A stretch of 27,546 nucleotides of DNA from Tubiluchus corallicola (taxonomy: Eukaryota > Animalia > Priapulida): NCBI GenBank assembly GCA_030141605.1, contig JAQGDQ010001731.1, positions 1 through 27,546 of the forward strand, in the 5' to 3' direction. The notes under the pieces are model-generated. The model made no database searches. It was given only the letters and a program-made list of their open reading frames with translations, and was not told where the DNA came from. A program made the position numbers and the translations under genes. Positions 14,998 through 25,297 of this stretch are shown here, piece after piece; positions within the stretch are counted from its first letter, which is position 1; every line of letters begins with the position of its first letter.

Positions 14998-17900
14998 TTC
15001 TAGACATTCTGTGTCAGATAAAGAACAATTCACATCAAAGCTTTCAGCCGAAAGATGGTGATTTCGTTAGTTCATCATTCACAGCCTTTCTTCAAGAATA
15101 TTTTTGCAAACTGCAGACTTTGAATTGCAGTCTAAACATTTGCCGTAGCAAGTTCAAAACGTGCCCCGCTAACGACGCACATAGACATTGTTAAAGAACC
15201 AGGAGAAAAGTTAAGACTTCTACGAATTCATCGTATATATTAATTTTGCTGGTATATATATATATCGTCATAGGCGTATTTAGAATTAGCGAGAGGGCCA
15301 CGGCGTCCCGTAATGCACATTCTCACGGACCAAACTCCAGTTTTTTTTCGAAATTTTGACCAAACAGCATGCCGAAAAAACGTTGTAGCGGCGCCTAGTG
15401 GGACTCTCAGACAGAGATATATAGCTCTTTAGAAAGAGGAAGAACAGGGCTATACGACGATGTGGGCTATATTTTAGGACACATCCACCAAAAGGAGTAC
15501 CGACGAGTTAATTAGATGTTCTATTTTTGACAATTTTCGCTTGGAAAACTGCTGATGCAAAGCCATTGTTCTGACGTCATTCATTATACTCTGTCTATAA
15601 CTTTAATTCAGTAAAAGCTGCTACCGGCTTTGTGTTAGGAAAATAAACGAACACTAGGGAGGATGTTCGCGCATTGTTGAATATAAGTGGATTTATAAAT
15701 GAAGTTTTTTGCGGGGCCTTTGCTAGTAATAAATGAATGTTTAATTAGTAGAAAGGCAAGCTCACCGTCTTCAGCACGAATGGAGTCAATCGTGTGCTCC
15801 AATGTAGGAGCTACCCAAGAGTACAGCTGATACGGGGTGGCAACTCTCTCAAACGGATGCCTCTGTACTCTGAAATGGCATACAATACATTCTACATGAA
15901 CATTTAAGTACCGTAAAGGGCAAGAGAGGCAAATACACCATCGGCTGCTATTAGATTAAAAATATTATGTGTGTGCTTGCATAGCAAAATCGTCCGTTAG
16001 TCGGCAATTAAGCTCTTCTAGTTATTCACATATCCTGAATCTCCATTTCATGAGCATCATTTTGATACCAAGTTCATCACTCTATGTTATTTCTACGCTG
16101 AGATAATCCACGTTGAAGTTGAGGTGCAGTCTACACACTGAAAAACGTAATCTTCAGAAAATCACTGTTAAAGTCAGCCATTGTTTTTTGTCGCGTTTCT
16201 ATAAAACACTTAGCAACCGGACAAATGTTGGTCTAAGGACTTTGCAAGAACACACTGCAGTTATGCTTAAATCCGGTAGATAAATCTGGGCTTTGCAAGA
16301 TAAAAAACCCAAAGCAAAATGACTGATTCGACGAGCTACTATCAGAGTTTGAAAATACAATTTTTTTTACAGCTGCAGTACTAGTTTCTAGCCTGAGAAG
16401 TGTGTAGGTGGTTAAAAAATTAAATTCTCAGTATTTTTCGAACATTTTCTTGATAATTTGATGCTAGAATACAAAATTCCAATATATTTGGCATTTGTTT
16501 TTATAAAAAAATGAAAAATAGGTATTTGACCCAATTTTTGGTGCCTTGAAATATTATAATGCAGTTTTAACAATGCCAACTTATTGACATTTTTGTTTGC
16601 AAGCGGTCATATTATTCATACACAAACGTGATAGTAACATATCAAATGGCAATGAATGTCATTGAATGGCCATTCTGTTCTAAACAGACCGCTGGCTCAT
16701 AGTTGATAGCATTTTGAATTGGCAGACGTTGCACTCGCAGAGTTAGCTGAAATGACTAGGAGTAAAGAGGACCTGTTAAACTATGTTAAAAGCGTTATGA
16801 TAGATAATTATGCTGATGAATGCTGGCATGAAGCCCAGTTAAGGTGTGGTGTCACGTGATCAAGTGATTCAGAACCGAAGCGTCGGTGCACGAGGTATAA
16901 GCCTTGTGATGCACCCAGCTCAGGGGATTGAGTCTGGGAGCTGAAGGAGAGCAGGCTAGATCAGGAGCTTGGCATTACTATCTGCCATATTTATTGTGTT
17001 TGATGTTCAATAAACGTGTAGTTTTATAATCTGACTCTTCATAGTTTTGCCATCCCTAAAAACACCAATAATCAGCTTCACACAACCAACACAATGAATT
17101 ATTTTACTCTATGTACTTAAACGCTAAATATTTTTACTCTAGCAATGCCACTGTGTCAGTCATAATCAAAAAACATCAACAAATTCAGATCCGAAAGATG
17201 GTAATTTGAAAGTTCATCATTCACAGCAGCACGATCGAGCCACAGAAAAATCCAAAAACGTATTTTGCAATAATAGTGAATCCGAGCTCCGCCACGTACC
17301 TCTTCTTTTGAAGAACGGCAAAGTTTCGTTTAAAAGCCGGACTGATCTGACAGAGGAGGTCAATCAGCGAATGTGACAAGTGCTTCTGCTGGGCGGCTTT
17401 GGGATTAAAAACATCTTCGGTTGTTCTGTAAAAATAATGATTTATAAGTATCAATACCAGGTTAACACTGTACTGCGTTCGAGGTCCACGTGCTCTCTGT
17501 TGCGACTCTTTAAACACCTGTAAATCAAAATCAGAATTTTTGCAAACAAATTTCACAAGTAACCTCTGAGAAAGGTTGATTTTTGGAACTGTAGCGGCAC
17601 AGTACAACCACGAAGAAAAAACTAAAGCACTCTCAATAAATGAGAGGAACATCTAAACTTTGTGGTAAAAACAGCAAAATAATTCACAGCACTAGATATA
17701 ATGGATAAAAGTCATGGTTAGTGTAACTTGAAAGTATTACTTACTGCTACGTACAACGCTTTGAAATCAGTTCTATATGTAGTGCTATGATTAGTATAAA
17801 CAGCACTGAGCCCCTTATTCCATTTGTAGCAAGTACACAGCCGTGTTTAGCTCCCTTATTCTATTTGTAGTAAGTACACAGCTGTGTTTAGCTCCCTTAT

Positions 17901-25297: not shown

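What the first reader, a model, noticed from the sequence alone, without database searches (positions are those of the whole stretch)
17151..23908. A 2-nt register shift splits the snoRNA paralogues into two predicted methylation targets
Seen: copies 1, 2 and 4 read TTTCGG-CTGA, copy 5 reads TTTCGGGA-CTGA and copy 3 reads TTTCGGAT-CTGA. Known: the nucleotide paired to the fifth base upstream of box D' is methylated. This gives the second A of CCG-A-A-AG for copies 1, 2 and 4 (yeast Am807, snR39/snR59; human SNORD51/32) and the G two bases earlier for copies 3 and 5 (yeast Gm805, snR39B; human SNORD2). Inference: both classes share the same 5' end and stem and alternate along the gene (G, A, G, A, A). 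They therefore look like cis-duplicates of one ancestor retargeted by a 2-nt indel, although elsewhere these guides are treated as separate families.
Basis: partly seen in the sequence, partly recalled or inferred. Interest (0 to 1): 0.8.

Follow-up and report, generated by a model that had tools for sequence, protein, structure and literature searches.

The report
Sibling snoRNAs split between neighbouring targets
Five small guide RNAs sit in five introns of one animal gene (CLUH) and differ by a two-base spacer that is predicted to aim them at two ribosomal RNA positions two bases apart; their shared ends suggest that one known guide type was likely re-made here from the other, but the sequences are too short to prove it.

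Summary
Five box C/D snoRNA genes lie one per intron in the CLUH (clueless) gene of an invertebrate. They share one 12-nt guide. Three place box D' directly after it, which predicts Am807 (U51/snR39 type). Two insert 2 nt (GA, AT), which predicts Gm805 (snR39B/SNORD2/96 type). A second study's contigs carry both spacers unchanged. Both target sites and both guide families are known and LECA-old, so the function is ordinary. What is open is the history. All five share terminal stems (A×G pairs 10-12/12 identical; at most 8/12 among 320 foreign pairs). They form a clade in 4 of 6 alignments with stems but 0 of 6 without. A split into two ancient families was never recovered (0 of 12) but was not rejected. 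Copy 5 keeps the G-family interior layout; copy 3 has a G register on an A-like interior. Best reading (about 0.55): local duplication with a 2-nt register shift. Main rival (about 0.3): two old families sharing a host, with ends homogenised by conversion. No RNA or methylation data were available. Verdict: new variant of a known kind, moderate interest.

The parts
23824..23906 (-). Copy 5: box C/D snoRNA, G register (spacer GA at 23867-23866, D' 23865-23862); predicted guide for the Gm805 equivalent; G-family-type C' layout
   Evidence: Rfam SNORD96 41.1 bits, E 7e-5, below gathering 43; pairing from -2 to -17 with one G·U; C' core 12 nt after D'; boxes, guide and spacer unchanged in X1 and X3
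20441..20516 (-). Copy 4: box C/D snoRNA, A register; predicted guide for the Am807 equivalent; recent duplicate of copy 2; preceded by a 27-nt tandem duplicate of its own 5' end (20496-20548)
   Evidence: Rfam SNORD51 40.7 bits; 73 of 76 identical to copy 2; TRF
17151..17226 (-). Copy 3: box C/D snoRNA, G register with an atypical AT spacer (17190-17189; A×C mismatch at -2) and an A-like short D'-C' loop
   Evidence: Rfam SNORD96 37.4 and SNORD51 30.4 bits; sequence confirmed in X1 and X3 contigs
15009..15084 (-). Copy 2: box C/D snoRNA, A register
   Evidence: Rfam SNORD51 43.6 bits, E 8e-5, below gathering 50
11994..12069 (-). Copy 1: box C/D snoRNA, A register; the 3' arm of the stem differs (CA to TG) but still pairs by G·U
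   Evidence: Rfam SNORD51 37.4 bits; fold
8313..25297 (-). Host gene CLUH, nine exons: 25297-25115, 21532-21448, 17425-17300, 15869-15766, 13405-13177, 12268-12166, 10869-10616, 9915-9782, 8418-8313. snoRNAs lie in introns 1, 2, 3, 4 and 6 of the 8 between them. Further exons continue towards 735.
   Evidence: 440 aa open frame, 8 of 8 introns GT-AG; Pfam CLU in 4 of 9 exons; 76-80% identity to named invertebrate CLUH proteins
19103..20521 (-). Block duplicated between copy 4 and copy 2 (14132-15089): snoRNA, linker and part of an interspersed element, with a later insertion at about 19834-20333
   Evidence: blastn 87% over 199 nt and 78% over 779 nt; snoRNA 3.9% against flanks 15.9% divergence, Fisher p 0.004
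26188..26331 (+). The preceding CLUH exon, intact but inverted relative to the rest of the gene in this assembly
   Evidence: tblastn 78% identity on the + strand with AG/GT ends

Best explanation
Five intronic box C/D snoRNA genes in the CLUH gene share one rRNA guide, and a 2-nt difference before box D' is predicted to send three of them to the A807-equivalent and two to the G805-equivalent of large-subunit rRNA; they likely descend from one local ancestor that changed register after duplication. Shown: the sequences, host introns, pairing registers, shared stems, and the duplication of copies 2 and 4. From established knowledge: intron-encoded C/D RNAs are trimmed from the host pre-mRNA, and fibrillarin methylates the base paired to the fifth nucleotide before D'. 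The two yeast counterparts have overlapping pairing sites and accumulate on pre-ribosomes without Dbp3 or Prp43 (PMC8053091). Inferred: one guide arrived in a CLUH intron and spread by intragenic duplication. An indel between guide and D' then moved some copies onto the neighbouring site that another ancient family serves in other eukaryotes. The slightly preferred direction is G to A: copy 5 keeps the G-family layout, copy 3 is an intermediate (G register, short D'-C' loop), and loss of 2 nt plus a T-to-C change that perfects the distal pairing gives copies 1, 2 and 4. An insertion into an A copy to make copy 3 fits about as well.
For: Across 7 nt before box C plus 5 nt after box D, window A×G pairs are 10-12/12 identical (6 of 6 pairs). 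Foreign A×G pairs reach at most 8/12 (320 pairs), and foreign same-locus paralogues 2-10/12 (8 pairs). With stems, the five form a clade in 4 of 6 alignments (UFBoot 77-96) and (91/91). In one search, copy 3 joins the three A copies at 97/93. An all-G versus all-A split appears in 0 of 12 analyses. All 9 foreign loci with two or more such guides hold one class only, so co-hosting is unusual in this sample. Copies 1 and 3 carry both classes' C' motifs, which bridges the types. Copy 3 matches copy 4 (A) and copy 5 (G) equally in the variable interior (0.76 each). Intragenic duplication and target change by small mutations or indels have precedent (PMC2653536, PMC6984369).
Against: Without the terminal stems the five are never a clade (0 of 6). 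Two stem-including alignments gave 0-1%. Removing three constant anchor columns moved copy 5 out of the clade. The AU test does not reject two ancient families (p 0.175, 0.164). Class signatures of foreign guides track register in the window: TC before the guide in 7/10 foreign A, 0/32 foreign G, 3/3 window A and 0/2 window G. A long D'-C' offset occurs in 0/7 foreign A loci, 9/16 foreign G loci, and in copy 5. A spacer-blind classifier scores copy 5 as G-like (+7.1) and copies 2/4 as A-like (-9.9), although it is only 16/23 correct in leave-one-out. The three five-copy topologies cannot be told apart. No RNA or methylation data exist for this organism.
Confidence: 0.55

Rival explanations
1. 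The A and G copies descend from the two ancient families (U51/SNORD51/snR39 and snR39B/SNORD2/SNORD96). They came to share the CLUH host, and gene conversion or recombination through the common 12-nt guide and boxes homogenised their ends, with copy 3 as a chimera.
For: Both families and both sites trace to the eukaryote ancestor (PMC3511168). Rfam's best matches split by class. Copy 5 has the G-family C' layout and the usual GA spacer (21 of 32 foreign G rows). The best outside match to the 3' half of copies 2/4 is a foreign A guide. Monophyly rests on 14 flanking bases only, and the two-family tree is not rejected.
Against: It needs both ends replaced while the middle is kept, using very short homology. 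No foreign locus co-hosts both classes (0 of 9 multi-copy loci). The two-family split was never recovered (0 of 12). The short C' layout also occurs in 7 of 16 foreign G loci, so the signature is not strict. TC before the guide can arise by selection for pairing.
Confidence: 0.3
2. Copy 5 is the only working G805 guide. Copy 3 is an A-type duplicate hit by a 2-nt insertion that is weak, redundant or decaying, so the split into two classes is partly incidental.
For: The AT spacer mismatches C802 and occurs in 0 of 32 retained foreign G rows; it is seen only in 2 rows I dropped as doubtful. Copy 3 groups with the A copies (97/93).
Against: Copy 3 keeps intact boxes, a 9-bp stem and 14 consecutive pairs from -3. 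Predicted plant guides starting at position 4 are accepted for mapped sites (PMC8053127). It is identical in a second study's contig. Copies 3 and 5 are sisters in 4 of 6 stem-including trees (78-90).
Confidence: 0.12
3. The locus is a broken or silent CLUH allele (an upstream exon is inverted), and the snoRNAs are not made.
For: Exon 26188-26331 and the neighbouring repeat copy are inverted relative to the rest of the gene.
Against: All nine exons examined, and the inverted one, are open with GT-AG ends. The copy 2/4 snoRNAs are about four times more conserved than their flanks. The flip begins at a repeat end, as a mis-oriented assembly would.
Confidence: 0.03

Closest known systems
U51 / SNORD51 / SNORD32, yeast snR39 and snR59, Drosophila-type snoMe28S-Am982 (Rfam clan CL00054)
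   Same: Same guide in the same register before D' (copies 1, 2, 4); predicted target Am807 / human Am1511; intronic; best Rfam match RF00280.
   Different: Host is CLUH rather than EEF1B2 (chicken, PMC2653536) or RPS8 and acidic ribosomal protein genes (foreign loci). Three copies here. Scores are below gathering. Ends are shared with G-register neighbours.
snR39B / SNORD2 / SNORD96 family / plant snoR39BY (Rfam clan CL00072)
   Same: Guide plus a 2-nt spacer before D' (copies 3, 5); predicted target Gm805 / human Gm1509; copy 5 has the family's C' layout.
   Different: No CTGCAATT element before box D, which the Rfam SNORD96 consensus and 15 of 32 foreign G rows have; that this is the 5.8S Gm75/79 guide is inferred from PMC8053127 and recall. 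Copy 3's spacer is AT. Host is CLUH, not EIF4A2 (PMC2653536).
Target switches among snoRNA paralogues (SNORD19/69, SNORA10/64 and SNORA2/34 in vertebrates; fungal clans CD_5 and CD_19; plant isoforms)
   Same: Duplication followed by a small change that alters the target (PMC6984369, PMC5824354, PMC2653536; Barneche 2001 seen as a title only).
   Different: Here the guide itself is unchanged and only its distance to D' moves. The new target would be a site already served by another LECA-old family.

Membership tests
Box C/D methylation-guide snoRNA | C box, D box, D'/C' motifs, terminal stem | tested here: met
   5 of 5 have ATGATGA, CTGA (D'), a degenerate C', CTGA (D) and a 5-9 bp stem
Box C/D methylation-guide snoRNA | At least 10 nt complementary to rRNA just before D or D' | tested here: met
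   13-16 bp with LSU rRNA fragment L141 and the Rfam consensus; the organism's own rRNA was not available
Box C/D methylation-guide snoRNA | Expressed, bound to fibrillarin, directs 2'-O-methylation | not testable with these tools
   No RNA holder listed; only contigs could be laid
SNORD51/U51/snR39 (RF00280, CL00054) | D'+5 base opposite the A807 equivalent | tested here: met
   Copies 1, 2, 4
SNORD51/U51/snR39 (RF00280, CL00054) | Score at Rfam gathering threshold (50 bits) | tested here: not met
   43.6, 40.7, 37.4 bits; foreign A guides also fell short of RF00280 and RF00535 gathering
SNORD51/U51/snR39 (RF00280, CL00054) | Descent from the ancestral A-guide gene (orthology) | tested here: inconclusive
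   Trees and AU tests
snR39B/SNORD2/SNORD96 (RF01299, RF00055, CL00072) | D'+5 base opposite the G805 equivalent | tested here: met
   Copies 3, 5; copy 3 has a mismatch at -2
snR39B/SNORD2/SNORD96 (RF01299, RF00055, CL00072) | Score at Rfam gathering threshold (43 bits for RF00055) | tested here: not met
   41.1 and 37.4 bits
SNORD96 / snoR39BY dual guide | Second guide before box D (5.8S site) | tested here: not met
   CTGCAATT is absent from 5 of 5 copies and present in 15 of 32 foreign G rows
snR39B/SNORD2/SNORD96 (RF01299, RF00055, CL00072) | Descent from the ancestral G-guide gene (orthology) | tested here: inconclusive
   Copy 5 interior is G-like and copy 3 intermediate; ends are shared with A copies

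The most novel reading that the evidence does not exclude
One LECA-old guide family was re-invented from the other inside a single host gene by a 2-nt slip. In this animal, the guides for the universally conserved Gm805 and Am807 sites would be sisters, not orthologues of both families. If such interconversion recurs, snoRNA 'families' defined by target are partly convergent, and inferred deep ancestry of the genes (as opposed to the sites) is overstated.
Probability: 0.45. Interest if true: 0.62.

Novelty: new variant of a known kind. Interest (0 to 1): 0.42.

Why it matters
Both methylations and both guide types are textbook, so nothing new is learned about ribosome chemistry. The locus matters as a compact natural test of how guide RNAs gain targets. 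Five near-siblings share an identical guide in two registers, and one copy (3) looks intermediate. If local retargeting holds, target-based family assignment (U51 versus snR39B) can mislead about orthology, and a conserved rRNA mark can outlast the gene lineage that first made it. It also adds CLUH as a snoRNA host; one literature search listed a single paper, whose title is unrelated and which I did not open.

Tried and rejected
No whole genome is held, so other copies in the genome could be judged only by cross-mapping contigs. None beyond the five appeared at 80% or more in the rows shown (tables truncated by repeats); a diverged G or A guide elsewhere would be missed.

Expression: no RNA holder listed. 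X6 (RNA by guess) covered part of one exon and neither of the three snoRNAs laid. This is no evidence either way. X5 and X6 gave no cover on copies 2, 3 or 5.

The guide pattern gave 0 hits in viral contigs. A PDB sequence search with exon 7 gave 0 hits. tblastn of CLUH against the 120 foreign loci gave 0 hits, so no orthologous CLUH locus was available. An Rfam scan of 20 of the 52 loci found nothing; L141 was picked by eye and confirmed.

Alternation as evidence for a duplicated G-A unit was rejected: exons are not duplicated, and copies 3 and 5 share no flank. Second (D-box) guides were tested only against the 291-nt L141 fragment and gave 8-10 nt matches of chance type; whole rRNA and snRNA were not tested. 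An alternative D' box (CGGA) in copy 3 was considered and set aside, since a perfect CTGA follows.

Five-taxon topology tests were uninformative. The host could not be placed below 'bilaterian invertebrate'. Earlier findings of this scan: none in 3 look-ups. Literature searches listed no paper whose title or read passages describe interconversion of these two guides. Most listed papers were not opened, subscription papers are missing, one paper was not held, and no supplements were read.

Full report
Observation. Rfam gives five sub-threshold C/D snoRNA matches on the minus strand. The best match is SNORD51 at 11994-12069, 15009-15084 and 20441-20516, and SNORD96 at 17151-17226 and 23824-23906. 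A pattern of box C, guide, 0-2 nt and CTGA finds exactly these five, against none in 100 shuffles. All share GCTGTGAATGATGA and fold a 5-9 bp terminal stem. Copy 3 is matched without difference by a contig of X1 (perhaps the source sample) and one of X3, from another study. Copy 5 differs in those runs only in the D'-D loop.

Targets. I fetched a eukaryotic LSU rRNA fragment (L141; aligned to LSU_rRNA_eukarya) and paired each guide to it. In yeast numbering, anchored by me on the G of CCCG, position -5 faces G805 for copies 3 and 5 and A807 for copies 1, 2 and 4. Copy 5 pairs from -2 to -17 with one G·U. Copy 3 mismatches at -2 and pairs from -3 to -16. The A copies pair to -14. The organism's own rRNA was not available. 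Yeast Gm805/snR39b and Am807/snR39-snR59 are listed in PMC5199042 (one table passage). PMC3511168 (table passages) places both sites and both guide families in the eukaryote ancestor, in clans CL00072 and CL00054. In Arabidopsis, mutants lacking SnoR39BYa or U51 show reduced methylation at G814 or A816 respectively (PMC8053127, passages). In yeast the two guides overlap on the pre-rRNA and accumulate there without Dbp3 or Prp43 (PMC8053091, passages). The predicted function is therefore well founded and ordinary.

Host. Nine minus-strand exons join into a 440-aa open frame with 8 of 8 GT-AG introns. Four of nine exons hit Pfam CLU, and relatives are named CLUH/clueless at 76-80% identity across molluscs, amphioxus, echinoderms and insects. 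The snoRNAs sit one per intron in introns 1, 2, 3, 4 and 6, 73-1208 nt from the 5' splice site and more than 1.1 kb from the 3' one. Copies 2 and 4 were duplicated with about 0.9 kb of flank. Their snoRNAs differ at 3 of 76 sites, against 15.9% in the flanks (Fisher p 0.004; p 0.07 for the nearest flank alone), which suggests purifying selection. The exon that should precede exon 1 is intact but inverted at 26188-26331; this was not tested further.

Comparison set. One metagenome scan (19 of 64 parts read) returned 121 stretches, 120 held as loci. It sees only guides with a perfect C box and CTGA after the guide, and the organisms are unnamed. After filtering for the longer guide and a D box, I dropped 11 doubtful or truncated rows and the duplicates, leaving 42 foreign rows: 10 A and 32 G. 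Fifteen G rows carry a second guide element before box D; these were thinned to 4 for trees (36 rows). Box and guide letters were set to one standard form and the spacer was removed to avoid circularity. Hosts seen were RPS8 and an acidic ribosomal protein gene for A, and an S2-family ribosomal protein gene and eIF3c for G (150 of 172 ORFs scanned). None was CLUH. All 9 loci with several guides held one class only; some of these are near-duplicates of each other.

For local origin. The 12 stem bases are 10-12/12 identical between window A and G copies, against at most 8/12 in 320 foreign A×G pairs and 2-10/12 in 8 foreign same-locus pairs. These stems turn over fast, so the five ends share a recent history. 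With stems, the five were a clade at 91/91 and in 4 of 6 alignments (77-96%). Copy 3 joined the A copies at 97/93. An all-G versus all-A split had 0% support in 12 of 12 analyses. Copies 1 and 3 carry both class-typical C' motifs.

Against it. The signal lies wholly in the stems: 0 of 6 without them, and 0-1% in 2 of 6 with them. Copy 5 left the clade when three constant columns were removed. AU tests reject neither hypothesis (five as a clade p 0.39 and 0.12; two families p 0.18 and 0.16). Interior features follow the old families. TC before the guide marks 7/10 foreign A, 0/32 foreign G, and all three window A copies but neither G copy. A long D'-C' offset marks 9/16 foreign G loci, 0/7 A loci (p 0.019), and copy 5 alone. 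A weak classifier (16/23 in leave-one-out) calls copy 5 G-like, copies 2/4 A-like, and copies 1 and 3 near neutral. The branching among the five is unresolved; copies 3 and 5 are sisters in 4 of 6 stem trees but not.

Reading. The simplest account is one local family with a register shift, most economically from a G-type ancestor like copy 5 through a copy-3-like form to the A copies (0.55). Two old families sharing a host with converted ends remains viable (0.3). Copy 3 as a weak or decaying insertion variant is third (0.12). Intragenic duplication and target change by small mutations or indels are known (PMC2653536, PMC6984369, PMC5824354; passages read; Barneche 2001 as a title only). I also read passages of PMC2780460 and PMC3116282, which show that the guide can sit before D instead of D' in fungi. 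My ten searches listed no report of interconversion between these two families or of CLUH as their host, but coverage is limited and no supplements were read; the family tables of PMC5824354 in particular may bear on this. The D'+5 rule and intron processing are established knowledge, recalled. Verdict: real, functionally ordinary, evolutionarily a plausible but unproven case of one ancient guide type re-made from its neighbour. New variant of a known kind; interest 0.42.

Noticed in passing
window 25437-26331 (and beyond): The CLUH exon preceding exon 25297-25115 lies intact but inverted on the + strand (26188-26331). The ~490-bp interspersed element at 25442-25931 is also opposite to its four other copies. 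This is a local inversion or a mis-oriented assembly.
   Followed up: partly
window 8122-8196 (-): tRNA-Asp(GTC) gene, or a diverged copy of one, inside a CLUH intron (ARAGORN; Rfam 39 bits with several non-standard pairs).
   Followed up: no
window 20496-20548 and 23775-23830: Small tandem duplications of snoRNA ends: a second 5' stem plus C box before copy 4, and a repeated 3' stem flank after copy 5.
   Followed up: no
window 1211-3591, 17812-19096, 21606-23495, 6780-7336, 270-760, 12560-13007: Intronic minisatellites (68 nt x35, 41 nt x27-31, 43 nt x44, 66 nt x8.5, 54 nt x9) and a long ACT microsatellite.
   Followed up: no
window 24147-24398, 19834-20333, 20839-21380: A long AT-rich palindrome and two elements with terminal inverted repeats (MITE-like); the 19834-20333 element interrupts the block shared by copies 2 and 4.
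   Followed up: no
L073:1003-5322: An RPS8 gene of another eukaryote with three A-register guides interleaved with four SNORD58-like snoRNAs.
   Followed up: no
L040:2-830: Three G-register guides in 1.1 kb, two with a CAGA D' box.
   Followed up: no
L141:1-291: A eukaryotic LSU rRNA fragment at the end of a contig of the viral collection.
   Followed up: partly
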